From positions 107,897 through 171,896 of IMG/VR virus record IMGVR_UViG_3300045988_146774: 64,000 nucleotides of DNA; one strand, written 5' to 3'. Position 1 is the first letter of the stretch. Every line of letters starts with the position of its first letter. Made by a program: the position numbers and the translations under genes. A model generated the notes under the pieces. That model did no database searches and was not told where the DNA came from. It saw only the letters and a list, made by a program, of their open reading frames with translations. Positions 44,601 through 54,645 of the stretch are shown piece by piece. This stretch comes from a virus.

Positions 44601-45110
44601 TTATTTATTCTCCAAAACTTCTTTGGGACAATAAATAATTTGTTTACCTGCTTTCTGTGCTTTGCGAATTGTAGACCATACACCGCCTGATTTAATTCCA
44701 TCCCAAACTGCAAGTAAAACATCACAATGGTCTACCATGTATTGATCTCTTACATTGTCACATCCTTTATAGAGTTCATCAGCAAGCTCAATCCATTCGT
44801 CTGCAAGAAGTTTAATATCGTTATAATATTTGTGTGAAGAATTGTAATCTTTACAAGGAAGAACGCAGTGTATCCTTAAAGGAATAACATTACCTGCTTT
44901 TAAAAATATTGAAGTCATTCCAAACAGAATATCTGATCCTGTTGCCATTCCACAATATATATCTAATGAATCATCTTCTAACAGTGTTGTCTGTAACATA
45001 TGTGTGAGATTGTTTACAATCCATCTTCTTATTTCTTCCCATCTATCGTCTAATTCATCTTCTGGAAGACTTAATCTCTGTGGTCTATGACCAGTCAATG
45101 CTATTTTCAT
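44601..45110 (-). CDS. SLOG-fold DUF1273 / YpsA-like protein
   Basis: ATG 45110 follows GGAG. ALTGHRPQRL, CGMATGSDILFG, LLAVWDGIKSGGVW match the YpsA/DUF1273 pattern. Confidence 0.6.
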   Translation of the reverse strand: MKIALTGHRPQRLSLPEDELDDRWEEIRRWIVNNLTHMLQTTLLEDDSLDIYCGMATGSDILFGMTSIFLKAGNVIPLRIHCVLPCKDYNSSHKYYNDIKLLADEWIELADELYKGCDNVRDQYMVDHCDVLLAVWDGIKSGGVWSTIRKAQKAGKQIIYCPKEVLENK

Positions 45111-45114
45111 ATTT

Positions 45115-45747
45115 CTATTCTCCAATCCTCCGATATTCCGTATATACATTGTTTTCACAGTAGTACAGATTGTAATCATTCTGTTCAATATACCACCACA
45201 ATTTCTGATGTCCTGCTTTTAAATAATCCTTACAATAATCAGTCTCTTGGTAATGATTATCTACCATCTGCCGAAAGCTTAACTCATCAATCTCATCAGA
45301 ATTATGACAATATACCGCTATTCTATTTATTAAATCTTCTGTGAAATTTTCCGTGACTACGAATACGACTCTGATTATTTCACTCATTGAACGTCTAATA
45401 GATTTTAGTTGTTCGAAATCATGCAAATGGTATACTACTCTATCGAAATATGGATATGGAGCATCTTTTACACCAACCATACTTGTATGTAATTCTATTT
45501 TTACTTTTTTCAAAGTAATATCAAAGAATTTTTTATACCAATCATAATGTTTTTCCAATTCCCATAATGGATCTCCGCCTCCTGATATTGAAACCCAGTT
45601 ACAATTATTCCTACGAATTTCTTTTCCTAGACCATCCAGCCCTTCTATTGTACTTTTCAGAATCTGCAAATTATTATTCTTTACAATACAATATGGACAG
45701 GTATAATGGCATCCGAAGTTCGTTATTACACTAATATATTTGTCCAT
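45115..45747 (-). CDS. radical SAM enzyme (small, unassigned subfamily)
   Basis: 210 aa. CxxxCxxC cluster GCHYTCPYC at residues 13-20. SAM-binding-like ISGGGDPL. Confidence 0.75.
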   Translation of the reverse strand: MDKYISVITNFGCHYTCPYCIVKNNNLQILKSTIEGLDGLGKEIRRNNCNWVSISGGGDPLWELEKHYDWYKKFFDITLKKVKIELHTSMVGVKDAPYPYFDRVVYHLHDFEQLKSIRRSMSEIIRVVFVVTENFTEDLINRIAVYCHNSDEIDELSFRQMVDNHYQETDYCKDYLKAGHQKLWWYIEQNDYNLYYCENNVYTEYRRIGE

Positions 45748-47366: not shown

Positions 47367-47765
47367 TTAAATAATTCCGAGTGTTTCATCTTCATACCTA
47401 CACGCTTTTGCTTTTGTGAACATATCTACATATTCCGACAAATTAAACATTCCAATCGTACATTGAGAAATCATATACATAATTCTTCTATACATAACAT
47501 CCGCAAACAATTGGTTATTTTCATTTAACAATACATCCATAAAAAGAAATCTTGCTTTATCTGGATCTCTATTTATAATCTCCAATGTTAATGGTTTTAG
47601 AAACAAATGCAACGCAAATGGAATATCCATAACAATATCATCGCATCCTAAATAATGTTTATGATAATAAGCATTCATTGCTTCTAGTTCATCACCATAT
47701 AATTTCTTATTGTACCAACCTTTACAAATTAGATAGATATCTGTTAATTGTTTATTCTCTGTCAT
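47367..47765 (-). CDS. hypothetical protein
   Basis: ATG 47765 lies 9 nt after GGAG. The longer track ORF overlaps the upstream gene by 47 nt. Confidence 0.55.
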   Translation of the reverse strand: MTENKQLTDIYLICKGWYNKKLYGDELEAMNAYYHKHYLGCDDIVMDIPFALHLFLKPLTLEIINRDPDKARFLFMDVLLNENNQLFADVMYRRIMYMISQCTIGMFNLSEYVDMFTKAKACRYEDETLGII

Positions 47766-48051
47766 CTCTTTTAACTCCAAATAATTCGCATAAATCATTA
47801 CTCATATTTATTATTTTGAAGAATCTATGAGCAATTTCTTCATTCATATGAGCTTCACAGACTGCCTCGGCTGCTTTTGGATGTTCACTACAATCCACAA
47901 ATTCTTTGTAATAGTCAACCATATCTTTCCAAATACCAATTGTTTCTCCTGCAATTAAACTTGTCCGTCGGCTTCTATAACATTTCTGCAACTTATCATT
48001 TGGCATACCACAGAATAAATTTCGTAATACGTGATTTTTAAATATTCCCAT
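47752..48051 (-). CDS. hypothetical protein
   Basis: 99 aa. Tiles. Confidence 0.6.
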   Translation of the reverse strand: MGIFKNHVLRNLFCGMPNDKLQKCYRSRRTSLIAGETIGIWKDMVDYYKEFVDCSEHPKAAEAVCEAHMNEEIAHRFFKIINMSNDLCELFGVKRDDRE

Positions 48052-48053
48052 AC

Positions 48054-48953
48054 TTATTCACCAACCTCCGATACAATTTTCTTAAACATATCATCCACGG
48101 AATCAAGTAAATCATATCTCTTATCAAATGGAGCCGTAGAACTTCTAGCGAATTTACGTTCAACCATATCTATATAATATGTAGAACTTCCGTCGTCTCC
48201 TTGATAAAATTCATTCCATTCTGAATCAGACAACAATCTCTTCACGTCGAGTTGCTCAATAGCAAGATTATCAAAACTAACAACTTTGAATTTATTCAAA
48301 ATATCCTGTAGATTTTCATATAACCATTGCTGATTTTCTTCTATTTCTTTTCTGTCAGAATCAAAATACTCATTACCTCGTCTCAAATGCTTATAGCCCA
48401 AAATGAGCATCTTTAAATTATTATTCTCCATAGCTTGTACATCAGATGGTTTCAGAACTCCATTAATTACATGAATTACAATATTGGGATATTTTTTGAC
48501 CTTTTTGATAAACTCTTGCGTTGGATTTACAAGAGATACACCTAGTCCATAAATAAGCTTTTCATTAATCATCTTATCTACCAAATCAATATTCTGTTCA
48601 AAATGCACCTGGTTAAGAGTAATATTTGTGATAACTTTTAAATCTCTGAGCTTTTCTAAGAATGGGATTAAATCAGGATGCTCAAGAACGTTACCTCCTC
48701 CGATTGCCACTTCTTGATATGGATGAAGTGTCTCGATAAATTTCTCGTTTAAGATATTTCCATGTTTGCCATTTTGTGTAGAACCTTCATGGCAAAACGG
48801 ACATCTCATTGAACAAGAATTGGTAATCTTAATATCCATATTTCTTGCAAAATCAAATTTAAATTCATCATCCTCTGTTTCACAAATGCGAGTACCGTCT
48901 GAAAATATTTTGTTAATCGTGTTTCCATTCTTGTACATGCCTAATAATTCCAT
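48054..48953 (-). CDS. radical SAM enzyme (unassigned subfamily)
   Basis: 299 aa. CxxxCxxC cluster SCSMRCPFC at residues 46-53. GGGNVLEHP SAM-binding-like motif. No C-terminal SPASM Cys cluster. Confidence 0.75.
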   Translation of the reverse strand: MELLGMYKNGNTINKIFSDGTRICETEDDEFKFDFARNMDIKITNSCSMRCPFCHEGSTQNGKHGNILNEKFIETLHPYQEVAIGGGNVLEHPDLIPFLEKLRDLKVITNITLNQVHFEQNIDLVDKMINEKLIYGLGVSLVNPTQEFIKKVKKYPNIVIHVINGVLKPSDVQAMENNNLKMLILGYKHLRRGNEYFDSDRKEIEENQQWLYENLQDILNKFKVVSFDNLAIEQLDVKRLLSDSEWNEFYQGDDGSSTYYIDMVERKFARSSTAPFDKRYDLLDSVDDMFKKIVSEVGE

Positions 48954-48979
48954 TCTAAAAATCCTCCATATTTTAAAAT

Positions 48980-49351
48980 TTAATCATGACCATAATATCC
49001 AAAAGCTACAATTCCTTCACCTTTTGGTGTAGTATAACTTTGTTCAAATGTTTCATACCAATTATCGTTGAAAAATTCTTCTGATGTTTTTATTCTTTCT
49101 TCTTCAAAAATACCATCTACTACTTCTTCGTCATTCCAATCGACATAAGGATACATAAGAGATCCATTCCATGACTTCTTTTCTTGCAGTTCTTTTATTA
49201 CTTCTTCTCTTGAAACAAATTTATCCTTGTCTTCCCAATAAAGCAGCTCTCCATTTTCCCATTTTTCATATTCATCAGAACTACACATTGTTAAACTATG
49301 TACCGAACTACTATTCGTTTCAAATACTCCACGTCTAATTTGTTTTTTCAT
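48980..49351 (-). CDS. ETNSSSxH-motif paralog 1 (shortest)
   Basis: 123 aa. N-terminus MKKQIRRGVFETNSSSVHSL shared with the two upstream genes. Confidence 0.7.
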   Translation of the reverse strand: MKKQIRRGVFETNSSSVHSLTMCSSDEYEKWENGELLYWEDKDKFVSREEVIKELQEKKSWNGSLMYPYVDWNDEEVVDGIFEEERIKTSEEFFNDNWYETFEQSYTTPKGEGIVAFGYYGHD

Positions 49352-49354
49352 ATG

Positions 49355-49933
49355 TTAATTTCCTTTCTCATAAATTTCGTATTTGTCAAATTCAGGTTTT
49401 AAATCACCATATAATGTATAAGTTCCCCAATCTGTTACTTCTTTGCCCTCTGCGATAAACATTTTATCTCTATATGAATCACCATTATCATTTCCTGTAA
49501 TAATAATCGAATTGCCAAAAAGATATCTAAACAACTTGTCTGAATCAGACAATAAATCATCTAACCAAGATTTTAATTCTCCTGCATGATCGATATAATC
49601 ATAACCAATGTCATAATAATAATGTTTTTCCTTACCATATTCATATGATTTAACATTTAATTCTGGGATTGTATATGTGATTTCATACTCATCTAGAATA
49701 TCTTTTAATCGAGTAAGTTTTTCATCAGCATATTCTTTGTCCATCGAAAGAATTGCTGTAATCAAATATGAAGCTTTATTATCAAGATCTCCATATTCTT
49801 CACATTCCCATCCATATTCTCCTGTATGAAAATCAATATGGTCTTTTAGTTCGTACCCATCTTTTGCAATACAAATTGCATGAGTACTGGACGAATTGGT
49901 TTCATAAACGCTTCTGCGGATTTGTCTTCTCAT
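49355..49933 (-). CDS. ETNSSSxH-motif paralog 2
   Basis: 192 aa. N-terminus MRRQIRRSVYETNSSSTHAI. Confidence 0.7.
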   Translation of the reverse strand: MRRQIRRSVYETNSSSTHAICIAKDGYELKDHIDFHTGEYGWECEEYGDLDNKASYLITAILSMDKEYADEKLTRLKDILDEYEITYTIPELNVKSYEYGKEKHYYYDIGYDYIDHAGELKSWLDDLLSDSDKLFRYLFGNSIIITGNDNGDSYRDKMFIAEGKEVTDWGTYTLYGDLKPEFDKYEIYEKGN

Positions 49934-49949
49934 ATTTATATTTCCTTTC

Positions 49950-50663
49950 TTAATCTACTGGATATTCATAATCGATTGCATCCATATCAATTAATCCTGT
50001 GTTTTTAATATCGTCCCAATAACAATATTCATCCCCATCTTGAATAACTACATATTTTCTATTCGTCAGATATTCTTCCAACGATACATTTTCTTCTTCA
50101 AGAAAACCACTAAGCATGTCTTCATCTACGCATCCTGTATATGGTTTATCAAAATGGAAATATCCATTATCTCCTTCCCAATATTCAATTGTATCAATTC
50201 CCCAATCTCTTTCTTTTTGTTCAAGCCACTCATTAAGCTCGTCTTCTGTCTTACCATATTCCTGAGCGTATTCACTATCTTTATTTGCCGGATGATCTTT
50301 ATCTGCAAACGAATCGGAAATCATAGGAATAACAATCCTTTTAAGACCTGGAACATATTTCAATGCAAGTGATTCAAGTTCTTTATATTTCTCATCATTG
50401 TATTCTCTAACTAACGAGGCACATGCATACAGCCATTTATCATGAAAATTGCCTAATGCTCTAAATGGACTTCTACCAAAATTCATATCATGATCCCAAA
50501 TATGCCACTCACAGTCTTTTTCTCCGGTATTTCTGTCATCCCACAAATAGAAATCTTTTAATATCTCTTCCGATGTGTAATGTTCGTCCTTTTTCATAAC
50601 ACAAAGAGAATGCTGACTGGAAGAATTTGTTTCAAAAACATTTGTTCTAATTTGTCTTTTCAT
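49950..50663 (-). CDS. ETNSSSxH-motif paralog 3
   Basis: ATG 50663 lies 9 nt after AAGGA, giving MKRQIRTNVFETNSSSQHSL, in register with the other two paralogs. Confidence 0.7.
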   Translation of the reverse strand: MKRQIRTNVFETNSSSQHSLCVMKKDEHYTSEEILKDFYLWDDRNTGEKDCEWHIWDHDMNFGRSPFRALGNFHDKWLYACASLVREYNDEKYKELESLALKYVPGLKRIVIPMISDSFADKDHPANKDSEYAQEYGKTEDELNEWLEQKERDWGIDTIEYWEGDNGYFHFDKPYTGCVDEDMLSGFLEEENVSLEEYLTNRKYVVIQDGDEYCYWDDIKNTGLIDMDAIDYEYPVD

Positions 50664-50691
50664 ATTCGTTAATCCTTTCTTTTTGTCACCC

Positions 50692-50768
50692 ATATATTGT
50701 ATGTGTCAATTAATCAAAATACAATATATAGTATTCATAAACAGATGAAATTTCGATTTCATCTGTTT
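50692..50768. promoter_or_regulatory. intergenic module C: ATATATTGTAT / ATACAATATAT inverted repeat + 13-bp hairpin (terminator-like)
   Basis: Inverted repeat at 50692-50702 / 50719-50729. Perfect stem AAACAGATGAAAT-ttcg-ATTTCATCTGTTT at 50739-50768, directly after the Nudix stop. Confidence 0.65.
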
Positions 50769-50778
50769 CTATTCTTTG

Positions 50779-51354
50779 CTATTCCCCATATATAATTTCC
50801 ATTAGCATAAGAGCTGTTTTCATGCATACTTTTTCTTCTTTTAGAATTCTCTTGATCTCATCTTTACCAGCTAATACGACATTAATCTCTTCTGTTAATT
50901 CGTTTTTGCCTGTACTCACCATTCCAGATATTTCTCCACAAATGATAGAACAACTTTCATCCGTCATTCCGGCTGAGGAATAGAATGCTTTGTTAGAAAA
51001 TTTTGTCTTCATTGGTACAAAATCCAATCCGGTTTCTTCTTTCATTTCTCTTATTGCTGTTTCATAAATATCTTCTCCATCATCAACAAGACCAGCCGGA
51101 AGTTCATAAAGATAATCTCCAATTGCATATCTGTATTGTTTAATCAATACGACCTTGCAATCTTCTGTAATTCCAACCATAGCCACCGCATCTGGCTTTT
51201 CTTCATGATTAATTGCTTTCAGATCATCAACCTGCTTTGCCCTAGAAGCCACTAGATATTCTAATGGCTTCCCTTCTTTATTCTCTGCATGTAATTTATA
51301 GAGGTTTAGAAATTTCTCATCTGTCATCTTCTCCACTGCACTAATCTTACCCAT
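50779..51354 (-). CDS. Nudix hydrolase, ADP-ribose pyrophosphatase-like
   Basis: 191 aa. Complete Nudix box G-x5-E-x7-REUxEExGU in GLVDDGEDIYETAIREMKEETGL. Size and layout resemble NudF-type ADPRases. Confidence 0.8.
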   Translation of the reverse strand: MGKISAVEKMTDEKFLNLYKLHAENKEGKPLEYLVASRAKQVDDLKAINHEEKPDAVAMVGITEDCKVVLIKQYRYAIGDYLYELPAGLVDDGEDIYETAIREMKEETGLDFVPMKTKFSNKAFYSSAGMTDESCSIICGEISGMVSTGKNELTEEINVVLAGKDEIKRILKEEKVCMKTALMLMEIIYGE

Positions 51355-51357
51355 AAT

Positions 51358-52095
51358 TTATTCTCCTGTGTATTCATAATGTTCCATCGGTTTCAATTTA
51401 AAAAGATTCTTCTCATGCATCTCATCAATCTTTCTCTTTACATTCTGATCATCGATTTCGCCTGTGCGAATATATTTATCAAGAACTTCATATGAAAAAC
51501 CAAAACTTTCCTCGTCTGTCTTGCCACACAATCCATCGATCGGAGTCTTATTTACAAATTCATCTGGAAGACCAAGTTCTTTTGCAACTGCTCTTACTTC
51601 TGTTTTTGTAAGCATTTCAATCGGAGCAAAAGACCCAAATCCATCGCCTCCATATGTTGCGAATCCGATATGATCTTCACTCAGATTACAGTTGCACGTC
51701 GGAATACCATTACAACACTGTGCATAAAAGAATAATTCTGACATTCTTACTCTTGCCGGTAAATTAATATTCGCCTGTTCTGTTTCTTCAATACCTTGTT
51801 TGGTATTTTCTTTTCTAAGAGTATCGACTGTATGTCCAATATTAACGATAGAATATCTAATTCCCAAATAATGAACTAAATTTAAGCTAACATTAATATC
51901 CGGCTGAATATGATAAGGCATTAACACTCCTCGCACCCTATCTTCACCAAGAGCTTTTACACATAATGCTGCTACTGTTGACGAATCGATGCCACCAGAA
52001 ATACCGATAACTGCATTCTGATTTCCGCCTAATTCATCAAAATATTTTTTAATCCACTCAACCAATTCTTCTGTAACTTTCTTAACGTCAAACAT
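51358..52095 (-). CDS. nadE: NH3-dependent NAD+ synthetase
   Basis: ATG 52095 lies 1 nt after the pncB stop. PP-loop IGISGGIDSS. About 245 aa, i.e. the short ammonia-dependent form without a glutaminase domain. Confidence 0.85.
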   Translation of the reverse strand: MFDVKKVTEELVEWIKKYFDELGGNQNAVIGISGGIDSSTVAALCVKALGEDRVRGVLMPYHIQPDINVSLNLVHYLGIRYSIVNIGHTVDTLRKENTKQGIEETEQANINLPARVRMSELFFYAQCCNGIPTCNCNLSEDHIGFATYGGDGFGSFAPIEMLTKTEVRAVAKELGLPDEFVNKTPIDGLCGKTDEESFGFSYEVLDKYIRTGEIDDQNVKRKIDEMHEKNLFKLKPMEHYEYTGE

Positions 52096-52096
52096 A

Positions 52097-53326
52097 TTAC
52101 ACACCAGCCTTTCTTTCGTGTTCCATTCTCCAGTCAATACATCTCTGTACATAATCTACATATTCCGGATTTTTACACATGCCTTTTCCAACTGTATCAC
52201 TAATTTTAACTGCATCTTGTCCATTAATTGCAGTTACTTTCATAACAATATTTAATGGCTCTACACAAGTATCGTTAGACAAATATGTTCCAATTCCAAA
52301 TGCCACATCTGCACGATCTGAAAAATGTCTAAAAATCTTATCAGCTATTTCGAAATTAAGCGAATCGGAGAAAAGTAAGGTCTTCGTTTTGCTGTCAACT
52401 CCAAGACTTTCATAATGTTTAAGCATCTGTTCTCCCCATTCAATCGGGTCGCCAGAATCATGTCTTACACCGGAGAACAATGTGGCGAATGTTAACTGAA
52501 AATCTTTTAAGAAACAATTTGTAGTAATCGTATCTGTAAGAGCAATTCCATTGAGCACTCCATACTCTTTAACCCATGCGTTGAGTGCATACCAGTTAGA
52601 ATATGCCGGATTGTGCTTATGATTGCCTTGACCTACGCACATAATCCATTCATGTGCCATAGTTCCTACAGGTGTTACTCCATACTTTTTAGCAAGATAT
52701 ACATTAGAAGTTCCAATAAATTTCGATGCACAATGCGATGTATCATTTAAATGTGAAAATTTCTCAACTACAAGTTCCTGAGCTTCTGCTGACAGTCTTC
52801 TTCTTAGACCAAATTCTGAAAATGTACCTGCGTACCAGTGTCCTTTCTTTAGCATATCGTATTTATAATCAAGTTTTTCTCTAAAACTTTCGATCAATTT
52901 GTCATAATCATACTGCATTCTAAAATACACTTCGTTCACTATTGCAAGAACCGGAATCTCATACATGGATGTGTTAAGCCAAGTTCCTTTCGTTTCAATA
53001 GATAGTCCGCATTCCGTATTTGTTCCGATATCAAAATCTTCATAGCGTGGTTGCCACAATCTTAGAAAATCTACGTAAGATCCTTTAATCCATTTGATAC
53101 TGTCAATATATTCCAGCTCATCTTCTGTGAATCTAAGACCACAATACGTCTTAATCTGCTCTTTAATTTCATTCACCATTTCTTCTGTAAAATGCACGTC
53201 TTTATTTCTGCATTTAAAAGTCCATGTTGTTTTATAATCCGAAAACTGATGGTAAATTGCCTGTCCCATACTCAGTTTATAAAGATCTGTACTTAACAAG
53301 CTTGTAATAATCTGATGTAATTTCAT
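52097..53326 (-). CDS. pncB: nicotinate phosphoribosyltransferase
   Basis: 409 aa. Aligns by eye along its length with E. coli PncB (TDLYKLSMGQA, FGLRRR, GTSN, GTMAHEW, GIALTD, RHDSGDP, LNIVMK). Confidence 0.85.
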   Translation of the reverse strand: MKLHQIITSLLSTDLYKLSMGQAIYHQFSDYKTTWTFKCRNKDVHFTEEMVNEIKEQIKTYCGLRFTEDELEYIDSIKWIKGSYVDFLRLWQPRYEDFDIGTNTECGLSIETKGTWLNTSMYEIPVLAIVNEVYFRMQYDYDKLIESFREKLDYKYDMLKKGHWYAGTFSEFGLRRRLSAEAQELVVEKFSHLNDTSHCASKFIGTSNVYLAKKYGVTPVGTMAHEWIMCVGQGNHKHNPAYSNWYALNAWVKEYGVLNGIALTDTITTNCFLKDFQLTFATLFSGVRHDSGDPIEWGEQMLKHYESLGVDSKTKTLLFSDSLNFEIADKIFRHFSDRADVAFGIGTYLSNDTCVEPLNIVMKVTAINGQDAVKISDTVGKGMCKNPEYVDYVQRCIDWRMEHERKAGV

Positions 53327-53341
53327 AATAAAAATCTCCTT

Positions 53342-53854
53342 TTATAGAATCTTCTTTTCATATAAATATTCTCTGAATAACGGATGAATCATATCTTCGT
53401 ATTTCTTAGGATTTTTTCTAATCTCCGTTCCTGATATATCAATGTTCTCTCTATCCAACAATTCAAAAATATGTTTCGGATATAAACATCGAATCTTAGA
53501 AAAATAACTTGACTCTCCAGAATACCATGTAATGTTATTCGTCTTCACATAAGGGTTGATTCCGGCATTAACAAATAATTCTGTACACCACCAACGCCAA
53601 TTTTCCAATGTAAATGTCCCATCTAATCCTATTTTCTTATCATCTATAACAACAACTTTCACATTTTCCTTCGTATAAAGCATTTTCATTAACTGGATTC
53701 TTTTACGAAAATAGATAAAATCCTTTCCACGATCGTTATCAAATCCACACACTCCAATAATTGTGAGCTGATTTTCTTTTATAGATCGATCAATCATTGA
53801 AAGATGACCTTTATGCAATGGAATAAAACATCCAAAAGTGATACCAATATTCAT
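53342..53854 (-). CDS. nicotinamide/nicotinate mononucleotide adenylyltransferase (cytidylyltransferase-fold)
   Basis: 170 aa. (H/T)xGH motif GCFIPLHKGH near the N-terminus, ISxTxxR motif ISGTEIR near the C-terminus. Confidence 0.75.
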   Translation of the reverse strand: MNIGITFGCFIPLHKGHLSMIDRSIKENQLTIIGVCGFDNDRGKDFIYFRKRIQLMKMLYTKENVKVVVIDDKKIGLDGTFTLENWRWWCTELFVNAGINPYVKTNNITWYSGESSYFSKIRCLYPKHIFELLDRENIDISGTEIRKNPKKYEDMIHPLFREYLYEKKIL

Positions 53855-53857
53855 TTG

Positions 53858-54370
53858 TTACTCTCCAATTACATTAATCTGACAACTCTTCATTACTTCT
53901 AATGCAGCCTTGTGTTTTTCAGGAGTGACACCTGCACAACAACTTGCGTCTACTGTAATATCAATGTTAGGATAATTTGCTCTAATAATAAGCGCATTTG
54001 AAATTACACAAATATCCGTACAAAGACCACAAATTTCTACACTTTCGAATGCAAAATCTTTCCAATTTTTCCATCCAAAAGTAAACTTGTCAATTAAAAT
54101 ATCATTATTAATATCAAAATTTAATTCATTTGAAATTTGCCAACCAATAGTATCTTTTACACAATGTACAACAGGAAGGTGTATACCTTCATATGTTTCT
54201 AAATAATTATTAGAATGTGTATCTCTAGTAAAAATTACTTGTTTACCAGCTTCCTTATATTTTTTAATCTTTTCTGCCACGTTTGATACAATTGCCTGTG
54301 CTTCTTTTGTTCCAAGAGAGCCATTAATAAAATCATTTTGCATATCAACTACAATTAAAATTTCTTCCAT
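53858..54370 (-). CDS. pncA: nicotinamidase (isochorismatase family)
   Basis: ATG 54370 (TAATG overlap with the upstream stop). ILIVVDMQNDF, catalytic-Cys context CGLCTDICV. Confidence 0.75.
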   Translation of the reverse strand: MEEILIVVDMQNDFINGSLGTKEAQAIVSNVAEKIKKYKEAGKQVIFTRDTHSNNYLETYEGIHLPVVHCVKDTIGWQISNELNFDINNDILIDKFTFGWKNWKDFAFESVEICGLCTDICVISNALIIRANYPNIDITVDASCCAGVTPEKHKAALEVMKSCQINVIGE

Positions 54371-54645
54371 TACTTCCACCCATATTCTTTCTTAATCTGC
54401 TTGAATTTTTTCGTAAATAACTTTAATTCTTTATATGTAAGTCTCGCTGGTTCCTTTAATGACAATGACGATCCTTGGATAACTGAATATGCGGTAAATT
54501 GATTATGAAATATTTCTATCACTTTATATTTAACATAACTGCAAGTTATTGATACTTTTGTATAAATAACTCCACGATCATCTTTTTTGTCAAACAACCA
54601 TCCGGCTTCTTTAATTTCTCTATCTAAATTTCTATTCCATATCAT
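54370..54645 (-). CDS. hypothetical protein coupled to pncA
   Basis: 91 aa from the ATG at 54645 (the track start 54669 is a TTG). Its stop overlaps the pncA start. Confidence 0.5.
   Translation of the reverse strand: MIWNRNLDREIKEAGWLFDKKDDRGVIYTKVSITCSYVKYKVIEIFHNQFTAYSVIQGSSLSLKEPARLTYKELKLFTKKFKQIKKEYGWK

What the first reader, a model, noticed from the sequence alone, without database searches (positions are those of the whole stretch)
47367..50663. Radical SAM enzyme followed by three tandem paralogs sharing a strictly conserved N-terminal M-[KR]-[KR]-Q-I-R-x-x-V-[FY]-E-T-N-S-S-S-x-H motif
**Seen.**
- Genes at 49950-50663, 49355-49933 and 48980-49351 start MKRQIRTNVFETNSSSQHSL / MRRQIRRSVYETNSSSTHAI / MKKQIRRGVFETNSSSVHSL, then diverge in length (237, 192, 123 aa).
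- They are spaced 3-16 nt apart.
- They are immediately followed by a 299-aa radical SAM gene (SCSMRCPFC cluster).
- The unit is bracketed by intergenic modules C and B.

I cannot assign the ETNSSSxH family to any characterised function. The conserved polar Ser/His run at the extreme N-terminus looks like a catalytic or metal/nucleotide-binding strand, or a recognition tag for the adjacent radical SAM enzyme. A conserved head with variable bodies, next to a radical SAM, directly upstream of the NAD operon, suggests a modification or small-molecule pathway not yet described.
Basis: partly seen in the sequence, partly recalled or inferred. Interest (0 to 1): 0.65.

Follow-up and report, generated by a model that had tools for sequence, protein, structure and literature searches.

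The report
Phage radical-SAM enzyme with tagged partner proteins
A radical SAM enzyme gene of large phages always sits beside one to five genes for very acidic proteins of unknown fold that share only an invariant 23-residue N-terminal "ETNSSSxH" head, which most likely marks them as the enzyme's protein clients, a pairing nobody has characterised.

Summary
Three adjacent minus-strand genes (237, 192 and 123 aa) begin M-[KR]-[KR]-Q-I-R-x-x-V-[FY]-E-T-N-S-S-S-x-H. A 299-aa single-cluster radical SAM (rSAM) gene follows them.

The pairing is not local.
- All 112 rSAM loci analysed carry 1-5 head genes on the same strand. They come from gut phages, Lak megaphages and Microcystis phage Ma-LMM01.
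- No other gene is shared across the distant loci.
- Among 50,697 phage genomes, the rSAM and the 24-residue head consensus hit the same 24 records.
- About 90% of head-anchored loci have the rSAM next door. A few lineages lack it within 10 kb.

The head proteins have these properties.
- They form a large unannotated superfamily with no Pfam, NCBIfam or PDB match.
- A confident AlphaFold model matches no known fold.
- The head always sits 8-10 residues from the start Met.
- Its tail co-varies by genome rather than by body family.
- The bodies are very acidic.

The Ma-LMM01 homologues are co-transcribed as middle genes. The neighbouring NAD operon is a strain-variable cassette and is unrelated.

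Best reading, at moderate confidence: a two-component module in which the rSAM docks on, and probably modifies, the head of several client proteins. The chemistry and the biological role remain unknown.

The parts
49950..50663 (-). Head protein A (237 aa), 'long' family. Head = residues 1-24 (nt 50663-50592).
   Evidence: ORF. Own SD. Motif. Orthologues of 214-283 aa occur in many loci. pI 4.44, net charge -29.
49355..49933 (-). Head protein B (192 aa), 'long' family and member of phrog_28997. Motifs: GE[FY]GW, KASYL, DH, TGNDN, C-terminal KGN.
   Evidence: phrog_28997 at 1.9e-19. 1408 cluster representatives. Conserved columns. AF2 pLDDT 94, with residues 1-15 coil and strand 1 at residues 16-23. 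No fold match.
48980..49351 (-). Head protein C (123 aa), 'short' family, the type that most often lies next to the rSAM. Conserved W31 and C-terminal AFGxYG.
   Evidence: 1366 homologues, none named. Lak orthologue at 44% identity.
48054..48953 (-). Single-cluster radical SAM enzyme (299 aa). CX3CX2C at C47/C51/C54, no other conserved Cys. Conserved N-terminal three-strand beta-meander.
   Evidence: Pfam PF04055 and phrog_16999 at 5e-38. Invariant columns. 7072 homologues. AF2 pLDDT 68. Best rSAM structural neighbours are SuiB, PqqE, SkfB and EpeE, all weak.
50664..50778 (-). Upstream intergenic region: a 13-bp perfect hairpin (50739-50768) after the Nudix gene, then an AT-rich stretch and the SD of gene A. 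Probable 5' boundary of the unit.
   Evidence: In Ma-LMM01 a middle promoter is predicted only before the head gene gp130.
47367..48051 (-). Two small ORFs (99 aa and 143 aa) downstream of the rSAM. Co-oriented, but not part of the conserved module.
   Evidence: No Pfam or PHROG hit. Found only in near-identical strains. Not among the families shared across loci.

Best explanation
This is a two-component phage module: one small radical SAM enzyme with a single [4Fe-4S] cluster, plus one to five client proteins.

Each client starts with the same 23-residue head. The head has two parts:
- a basic, flexible tail (M-K-R-Q-I-R-R-G-V-F);
- an invariant E-T-N-S-S-S-x-H that leads into the first beta-strand of an otherwise variable, very acidic body.

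I propose that the tail docks each client on the co-encoded rSAM, possibly against the enzyme's conserved N-terminal beta-meander. The 5'-deoxyadenosyl radical would then act on a residue of the invariant ETNSSSxH stretch, most plausibly one of the three serines. This would install a stable post-translational change that the clients need for their own activity, which is unknown. The logic is one maturase serving many clients that carry a common recognition and modification site.

Shown:
- the gene pairing;
- the architecture of the head;
- its fixed N-terminal position;
- genome-wise co-variation of the tails;
- co-transcription in Ma-LMM01.

Inferred:
- physical docking;
- that the head is the substrate;
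- the residue attacked;
- the chemistry.
For: 1. rSAM to head. All 112 loci in which the rSAM ORF was identified carry head genes. Head proteins and the rSAM are the only families shared by all of them, and no other family recurs across the distant loci. The regex scan gave 111/118. The apparent exceptions are truncated contigs or carry the variant ETNSSI[DE]H.

2. Complete genomes. Of 50,697 phage records, the rSAM is in 24 (15 Lak, 9 Microcystis phages), apart from one weak partial hit in Salmonella phage Arash (26% identity over 55% of the query). The 192-aa head protein is in the same 24. The bare 24-residue head consensus, at E<=10, also hits exactly those 24.

3. Head to rSAM. Among loci fetched by a head DNA pattern, 40/45 with >=2 kb flanks and 25/28 with >=3 kb flanks have the rSAM, and one more (L181) has a divergent rSAM. 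The rSAM is on the same strand in 81/81 loci. The median distance is 395 nt.

4. One enzyme, variable clients. There are 1-5 head genes per rSAM. The bodies fall into a 'long' family (186 unique sequences), a 'short' family (112) and 26 small groups, with no body-only similarity between the window's three types by hhalign. Lak-C1 has five head genes after its rSAM.

5. N-terminal position. The head lies 8-10 residues from the Met in 454 of 462 ORFs.

6. Structure. In the AF2 model (pLDDT 94), residues 1-15 are coil at lower confidence and strand 1 starts at residue 16.

7. Tail co-variation. Tails of different body families within one genome are more alike than tails of orthologues in different genomes (938 of 1310 quartets against 166 the other way). 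The window shows no sign of gene conversion.

8. Enzyme features. The rSAM is compact. Its only conserved cysteines are the three of the cluster. Its closest solved rSAM structures are peptide-modifying enzymes (SuiB E 7.7e-4, PqqE, SkfB, EpeE), though the matches are weak.

9. Expression. Ma-LMM01 gp130 (head), gp129 and gp128 (rSAM) are all in middle class B5, with a predicted promoter only before gp130 (PMC5780444 Table S3).
Against: - No direct evidence of binding or modification exists. A complex could not be predicted with the tools at hand.
- The rSAM model is mediocre (pLDDT 68) and its structural matches are weak.
- The rSAM lacks an RRE or SPASM domain. It also lacks the auxiliary clusters and extra cysteines that most known peptide-oxidising, cross-linking or epimerising rSAMs use.
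- In the long family the invariant head sits beside other conserved polar motifs (DH, GNDN). That pattern would also fit an active site of the head proteins themselves.
- Some head arrays have no rSAM within 10 kb (L241, L242, L244-L247), so modification cannot be universally required unless the enzyme is encoded elsewhere.
- One ORF (L158) has a second, internal head.
- The quartets in the co-variation test are not independent.
Confidence: 0.45

Rival explanations
1. The head proteins are enzymes or ligand-binding subunits in their own right. ETNSSSxH, together with DH and GNDN in the long family, forms a metal- or phosphate-binding active site. The proteins work with the rSAM in a shared pathway on a non-protein substrate (nucleotide, nucleic acid or small molecule). 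They may act as specificity or accessory subunits. They are not themselves modified.
For: - The near-invariant polar residues E11, N13, S14-16, H18, D115, H116 and N148-D149-N150 look like a catalytic or binding pocket.
- The fold is well ordered (pLDDT 94).
- Each body type has orthologues across very distant phages.
- Head genes can occur without an adjacent rSAM, so they have a function of their own.
- In some rSAM-less loci they follow a metallophosphoesterase gene and lie near RNA-repair genes.
Against: - The short family (95-156 aa) keeps the head but none of the DH or GNDN motifs. Only the head is common to all types.
- The fixed N-terminal position and the genome-wise co-variation of the flexible tail are not expected of an internal active-site strand.
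- No third gene, such as a substrate-supplying enzyme, is conserved.
- The very acidic bodies (median pI 4.35) argue against nucleic-acid binding.
Confidence: 0.3
2. The head is a targeting or processing signal, comparable to the T4 capsid-targeting sequence of internal proteins (an N-terminal ~10 residues ending hydrophobic-x-Glu, cut by the prohead protease). It would direct diverse acidic effector proteins, for example DNA mimics or anti-defence proteins, to the capsid or to a protease. The rSAM would be one more cargo-related or independently linked gene.
For: - The tail ends V-F-E at residues 9-11, at a fixed distance from the Met.
- The arrays are tandem and copy-number-variable, with divergent bodies.
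- The bodies are very acidic, as in many phage anti-restriction proteins.
- The comparison with the T4 sequence rests on my own knowledge of T4 and was not tested.
Against: - The strongest conservation lies after the putative cut site (T-N-S-S-S-x-H) and runs into the first core strand.
- This reading does not explain the near-obligate, same-strand adjacency to an rSAM across unrelated phage lineages.
- The Ma-LMM01 homologues are in middle class B5, with the replication genes but also lysozyme and terminase. They are not among the five late genes, which include two major head proteins and the tail sheath.
Confidence: 0.08
3. The rSAM is an activase of the PFL-AE/NrdG type. It would place a stable backbone radical on the head proteins, for example on the conserved [FY]-G of the GE[FY]GW and AFGxYG motifs, making them a new class of radical enzymes.
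For: - The rSAM is small, has a single cluster and has no auxiliary cysteines.
- Its best NCBIfam hit is NrdG2, at E 2.5e-6.
- One source names a homologue 'organic radical activating enzyme'.
- An aromatic-Gly motif is conserved in the long and short families.
Against: - The NrdG2 score is 27 bits against a cut-off of 131.
- There is no RVxG[FWY] glycyl-radical motif and no glycyl-radical-enzyme fold.
- The element shared by all clients is the head, not the Gly motif.
- The module occurs in phages of the oxygenic cyanobacterium Microcystis, where oxygen-labile protein radicals are unlikely. This last point rests on my own knowledge.
Confidence: 0.07

Closest known systems
Radical SAM protein and peptide maturases with dedicated substrates (anSME-sulfatase; RiPP maturases such as SuiB, PqqE, SkfB and EpeE; ProcM-like 'one enzyme, many precursors' logic)
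   Same: - An rSAM is encoded next to its presumed protein substrates.
- Several paralogous clients share a conserved recognition sequence and differ elsewhere.
- The weak best structural neighbours of the rSAM are peptide-modifying rSAMs.
   Different: - There is no SPASM or twitch auxiliary cluster and no RRE/PqqD domain.
- The clients are folded, acidic proteins of 95-283 aa with their own conserved motifs. They are not short leader-core peptides.
- No protease or exporter is conserved.
- The conserved element is at the extreme N-terminus and is itself nearly invariant.
- There is no (C/S)xPxR motif.
Glycyl-radical-enzyme activases (PFL-AE, NrdG)
   Same: It is a compact single-cluster rSAM that would act on a folded protein partner encoded beside it. 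It gives weak NrdG2 and PFL-AE profile hits.
   Different: - The scores are far below the family cut-offs.
- The partners lack the glycyl-radical motif and fold.
- There are several unrelated partner bodies per enzyme.
phrog_16999 ('Fe-S oxidoreductase', e.g. Ma-LMM01 gp128) and phrog_28997 (unknown function, e.g. Ma-LMM01 gp130)
   Same: The window's rSAM and its 192-aa head protein are members (5.3e-38 and 1.9e-19). The gene order matches Ma-LMM01.
   Different: These PHROGs carry no tested function. The 237-aa protein matches no PHROG, and the 123-aa protein matches phrog_28997 only through its head.
T4 internal proteins with a capsid-targeting sequence
   Same: Tandem genes for divergent proteins share only a short N-terminal sequence that ends hydrophobic-x-Glu.
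   Different: - Conservation continues past the Glu into the fold.
- The genes are obligately linked to an rSAM.
- The Ma-LMM01 homologue is in the middle expression class, not among the five late genes.

Membership tests
Radical SAM superfamily (PF04055) | CX3CX2C motif that binds the [4Fe-4S] cluster | tested here: met
   C47-x3-C51-x2-C54 (CSMRCPFC). Invariant across the window, Lak and Ma-LMM01 homologues.
Radical SAM superfamily (PF04055) | Profile score above the curated cut-off, and a (beta/alpha) partial-barrel core | tested here: met
   32.3 bits against a cut-off of 29.5. The AF2 core has alternating strands and helices at pLDDT 77-93 for residues 80-180. The best Foldseek hits include the rSAMs SuiB, PqqE, SkfB, EpeE, DesII and QueE.
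SPASM/twitch peptide-modifying rSAMs (anSME, SuiB, PqqE, SkfB) | C-terminal cysteine-rich auxiliary Fe-S cluster domain | tested here: not met
   The protein has only 4 Cys, and only the three cluster Cys are conserved. There is no SPASM or Fer4 hit above cut-off.
SPASM/twitch peptide-modifying rSAMs (anSME, SuiB, PqqE, SkfB) | RRE (PqqD-like) leader-binding domain or partner | tested here: not met
   No Pfam or NCBIfam hit in the rSAM or its neighbours. The N-terminus is a ~26-residue three-strand meander.
Glycyl-radical activases (NrdG, PFL-AE) | Family profile above cut-off, and a cognate protein with an RVxG[FWY] glycyl-radical domain | tested here: not met
   NrdG2 scores 27 bits against 131, and PFLA 12.8 against 231. 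The head proteins have no Gly_radical Pfam hit.
RiPP precursor peptides | Short precursor (usually under 100 aa) with an N-terminal leader and a C-terminal core, plus a leader protease or exporter | tested here: not met
   The clients are 95-283 aa and well folded. The only families conserved across loci are the heads and the rSAM.
anSME-sulfatase system | (C/S)-x-P-x-R modification motif in an alkaline-phosphatase-fold client | tested here: not met
   The motif is E-T-N-S-S-S-x-H. There is no sulfatase Pfam hit and no alkaline-phosphatase-superfamily fold match.
Ntn-hydrolase and pyruvoyl autoprocessing enzymes (considered because a flexible propeptide-like tail precedes Ser at the start of strand 1) | alpha-beta-beta-alpha or double-psi barrel fold, with self-cleavage before Ser/Thr/Cys | tested here: inconclusive
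   Foldseek found no such fold (best E 0.3, TM<0.2). Cleavage itself cannot be tested in silico.
T4-type capsid-targeting sequence proteins | N-terminal ~10 residues removed by the prohead protease after hydrophobic-x-Glu, and the protein is packaged in the virion | not testable with these tools
   V-F-E is present at residues 9-11. Processing and packaging need proteomics. The middle-class (B5) expression of the Ma-LMM01 homologue argues weakly against.
phrog_28997 / phrog_16999 | Significant profile match over most of the protein | tested here: met
   192-aa protein: 1.9e-19, residues 4-154. rSAM: 5.3e-38, residues 32-292.

The most novel reading that the evidence does not exclude
A phage-specific protein-maturation system of a new type. 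A minimal rSAM with no auxiliary cluster would install a so-far-undescribed modification, a protein-derived cofactor or warhead, on the invariant N-terminal E-T-N-S-S-S-x-H motif. The motif belongs to a new-fold, highly acidic protein superfamily whose paralogs are deployed in arrays. Possible roles are host-takeover or anti-defence effectors.
Probability: 0.3. Interest if true: 0.85.

Novelty: new variant of a known kind. Interest (0 to 1): 0.68.

Why it matters
- **Scale.** The module has thousands of members in metagenomes: 7072 rSAM homologues, and 1324 and 1366 homologues of two of the head proteins.
- **Distribution.** It occurs in Lak megaphages of the human and animal gut, in large phages whose contigs are binned with gut Clostridia genomes, and in the bloom-controlling Microcystis phage Ma-LMM01.
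- **Annotation gap.** None of the listed head-protein hits carries a name beyond 'hypothetical protein', and none has a Pfam family or a structural relative.
- **Tractability.** The strict two-gene coupling makes an unknown rSAM reaction directly testable, because the likely substrate, a 23-residue invariant head, is already in hand. Ma-LMM01 gives a cultured system in which the genes are known to be expressed.
- **Payoff.** If the head is modified, this would add a new rSAM chemistry on folded proteins and a function for a large phage protein superfamily.

Tried and rejected
**Searches that returned nothing useful**
- Pfam, NCBIfam and PHROG scans of all three head proteins, plus Pfam on 131 family members. 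Only phrog_28997 (unknown function) matched.
- PDB searches by sequence and by profile: nothing. The rSAM profile against PDB: nothing relevant.
- Foldseek of the confident B-type model against PDB and BFVD: only a family member matched.
- Literature searches for the motif, and for rSAM together with Lak, Ma-LMM01 or anti-defence: nothing on this module.
- The head proteins were not scanned against the defence-system library (PADLOC).

**Technical failures**
- The first DNA pattern had too few fixed bases.

**Ideas considered and dropped**
- A link to the NAD operon, rejected.
- The downstream 99-aa and 143-aa ORFs as module members, rejected.
- A metallophosphoesterase as an alternative obligate partner in rSAM-less loci. 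It is directly adjacent in only three loci and scattered elsewhere.
- HAD-like, alkaline-phosphatase-like, Tat-signal and bacterial N-glycosylation-sequon (E-x-N-x-S) readings of the head. I considered these from memory. None has fold or context support, and none was pursued.
- A Cys at head position 21 or 23 as a cross-link partner. It is not conserved.
- Recent gene conversion as the cause of head identity in the window, rejected on synonymous differences.

**Could not be run**
- Prediction of the rSAM-client complex. The structure tool takes single chains of window sequences only.


Full report
**1. What is in the window**

The region lies in the replication and nucleotide-metabolism part of a large AT-rich phage genome (GC about 0.31-0.35). 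Nearly all long ORFs in the window are on the minus strand. The window also encodes a large DNA polymerase, a DnaB-like helicase, a primase, RecJ, an NAD-dependent ligase, an RNA ligase, a PNK and NAD-salvage genes. It has no close DNA relative among deposited phage genomes. It is identical over the rSAM gene to IMG/VR contig UViG_3300045988_122193. Related contigs are binned with Lachnospiraceae and other Clostridia genomes.

- 49950-50663, 237 aa, called A here;
- 49355-49933, 192 aa, called B;
- 48980-49351, 123 aa, called C;
- 48054-48953, 299 aa, the rSAM with CSMRCPFC.

Each head gene has its own AAGAAAGGA Shine-Dalgarno sequence. The paralogs resemble each other only over their first ~24-29 residues. 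The motif occurs exactly three times in the window, against zero expected by chance. The serine codons differ between copies, so the identity is maintained at protein level.

**2. The pairing with the rSAM is general**

Ma-LMM01 has gp130 (head protein), gp129 and gp128 ('Fe-S oxidoreductase', an rSAM homologue) in the same order. Lak-C1 has the rSAM followed by five tandem head genes.

I fetched 116 further rSAM-anchored loci, 80 from IMG/VR and 36 from genome contigs, and added the Ma-LMM01 and Lak-C1 loci.
- 111 of the 118 loci contain 1-5 head ORFs on the same strand.
- The rest are truncated contigs or carry the variant ETNSSI[DE]H.
- In the 112 loci where the rSAM ORF could be delimited, head proteins are present in all.
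- No other gene family is shared among the distant loci.

In the 50,697 deposited phage genomes the rSAM, the B-type protein and the bare 24-residue head consensus (at E<=10) each hit the same 24 records: 15 Lak and 9 Microcystis phages. The rSAM also gave one weak partial hit in Salmonella phage Arash.

I then searched in the other direction, using a DNA pattern for the head.
- 40 of 45 loci with >=2 kb on both sides have the rSAM, as do 25 of 28 with >=3 kb. One further locus, L181, has a divergent rSAM.
- The rSAM is always on the same strand.
- A few lineages have head arrays with no rSAM within 10 kb.

The rSAM therefore never occurs without head genes, while head genes occasionally occur without an adjacent rSAM.

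**3. The head proteins**

The B-type family alone has 1408 cluster representatives at 50% identity. The C-type has 1366 homologues. None of the listed hits carries a name beyond 'hypothetical protein'.

No Pfam, NCBIfam or PDB sequence relative exists. An AlphaFold model of B built on 131 sequences is confident (pLDDT 94, pTM 0.88). It matches nothing in the PDB (best E 0.3) and only a family member in BFVD.

In that model residues 1-15 are coil at lower confidence, and the first strand starts at residue 16. The head is thus a flexible basic tail, followed by E-T-N-S-S-S at the junction, then x-H-S-L-x-h-x as strand 1.

Across 156 unique heads, R6, E11, N13, S14, S15, S16 and H18 are essentially invariant. 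The selection regex fixes part of this.

The head lies 8-10 residues after the start codon in 454 of 462 ORFs. One ORF, in L158, is a tandem fusion with an internal second head.

The bodies differ between types.
- hhalign on body-only alignments finds no similarity between A, B and C.
- With 359 unique sequences, A, B and related types link into one 'long' superfamily. Its members share [FY]G[WR], KASYL, DH and F[IL]FNP...GNDN/DGDEY motifs.
- The C-type forms a separate 'short' family, which keeps only W31 and a C-terminal AFGxYG.

All bodies are very acidic (median pI 4.35), while the tails carry +2.5 to +3.5.

**4. Evidence for a shared partner**

Tails of different body families within one genome are more similar to each other than tails of orthologous bodies in different genomes. 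This holds for 938 of 1310 quartets, against 166 the other way (mean difference +0.12). For example, position 3 is hydrophobic in all five Lak heads and basic in all three window heads.

The quartets are not independent, and gene conversion cannot be excluded elsewhere. In the window, however, the codons differ. This pattern is what co-evolution with one genome-specific partner would produce.

**5. The rSAM**

It belongs to phrog_16999, with 7072 homologues. Its only conserved cysteines are the three cluster ligands, and it has a conserved N-terminal beta-meander (Y7, N9, G10, D19, G20, T21).

It is not close to any curated NCBIfam family (best NrdG2, 27 bits against 131) or to any PDB sequence. 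Its AF2 model is mediocre (pLDDT 68). The best rSAM neighbours by Foldseek are peptide-modifying enzymes (SuiB, PqqE, SkfB, EpeE), at weak significance.

**6. Expression**

In Ma-LMM01, gp128, gp129 and gp130 are all in middle class B5. Their values are 0 in the first two columns and about 9-10 in the last two. A predicted middle promoter lies before gp130 only (PMC5780444, section 17 and Table S3). This is consistent with one operon.

**7. What is not linked**

The NAD cassette (Nudix, NadE, NAMPT, NMNAT) is absent from strains that carry a 100%-identical rSAM (L238-L240) and from almost all other loci. A perfect 13-bp hairpin separates it from gene A. The two small ORFs downstream of the rSAM are strain-specific.

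**8. Interpretation**

The most economical account is a two-component module. The rSAM recognises the common N-terminal head of several client proteins and most likely modifies it. This account explains:
- the obligate dependence of the rSAM on head genes;
- the one-to-many arrangement;
- the fixed N-terminal position;
- the flexible tail;
- the genome-wise co-variation.

I put this at about 0.45.

The chemistry is open. With no auxiliary cluster, no cobalamin domain and no extra conserved cysteine, many known peptide chemistries would need an unusual mechanism. Attack on one of the three serines is a guess by analogy with anSME, and I hold it at low confidence.

The main rival, at about 0.3, is that the head is part of an active or binding site of the head proteins, which would cooperate with the rSAM on a non-protein substrate. 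Two further rivals are less likely: a targeting or processing signal of the T4 type, and a PFL-AE-like radical activase.

**9. Novelty**

By logic the module resembles known rSAM maturase-substrate pairs. It fails the defining features of each specific family tested: SPASM and RRE maturases, activases, RiPP precursors and anSME-sulfatase. The client fold has no known relative. I therefore class it as a new variant of a known kind. There is a real chance, about 0.3, that it is a new kind of protein-maturation system.

Noticed in passing
window 50779-54379: The NAD-salvage cassette (Nudix, NadE, NAMPT, NMNAT) is strain-variable. In contigs that carry a 100%-identical rSAM (L239, L240) three small ORFs occupy its place between the DUF8224 gene and the head genes.
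   Followed up: partly
window 45115-45747 and 44601-45188: A second small rSAM-like ORF (210 aa, CHYTCPYC near the N-terminus, phrog_17662 at 1.9e-72, weak NrdG2 similarity) overlaps a YpsA/SLOG-like ORF. The rSAM-like gene lies within 6 kb of the module in 12 rSAM-anchored loci.
   Followed up: partly
window 50739-50768: A perfect 13-bp inverted repeat (AAACAGATGAAAT-4 nt-ATTTCATCTGTTT) lies between the Nudix gene and the first head gene. It may be the terminator or boundary of the NAD cassette.
   Followed up: no
L158 11827-12819 (-): A single ORF of about 330 aa contains two head motifs (around residues 14 and 178). It is a tandem fusion of two head proteins, so the second head is internal.
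   Followed up: no
L143 970-1722, L241 8286-9041, L233 893-1471: In head arrays that lack an rSAM, a calcineurin-like metallophosphoesterase gene lies directly upstream and overlaps the first head gene. L241 also has an RNA ligase and a CCA-adding enzyme nearby. Elsewhere the phosphoesterase is scattered.
   Followed up: partly
window 49355-49369 / 49352-49366 region: The last codons of protein B (K-G-N: AAA GGA AAT) double as the Shine-Dalgarno sequence of gene C, which starts 3 nt after B's stop. Even so, the C-terminal KGN is conserved family-wide, including where the next gene is 49 nt away (Ma-LMM01).
   Followed up: no
L001 3971-4771 (Ma-LMM01 gp131): A 266-aa ORF annotated 'histidyl tRNA synthetase' sits immediately upstream of the head gene gp130. 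From its sequence I read it as a class II aminoacyl-tRNA-synthetase-like protein; I did not test this. It is not conserved next to the module in other lineages.
   Followed up: no
L241, L242, L244-L247, L125, L229, L143: Head proteins in the rSAM-less neighbourhoods mostly have the 8-residue tail (MKTIRxxVFE). Many have Cys at the variable head position (ETNSSSCH). They may form a distinct subfamily.
   Followed up: no
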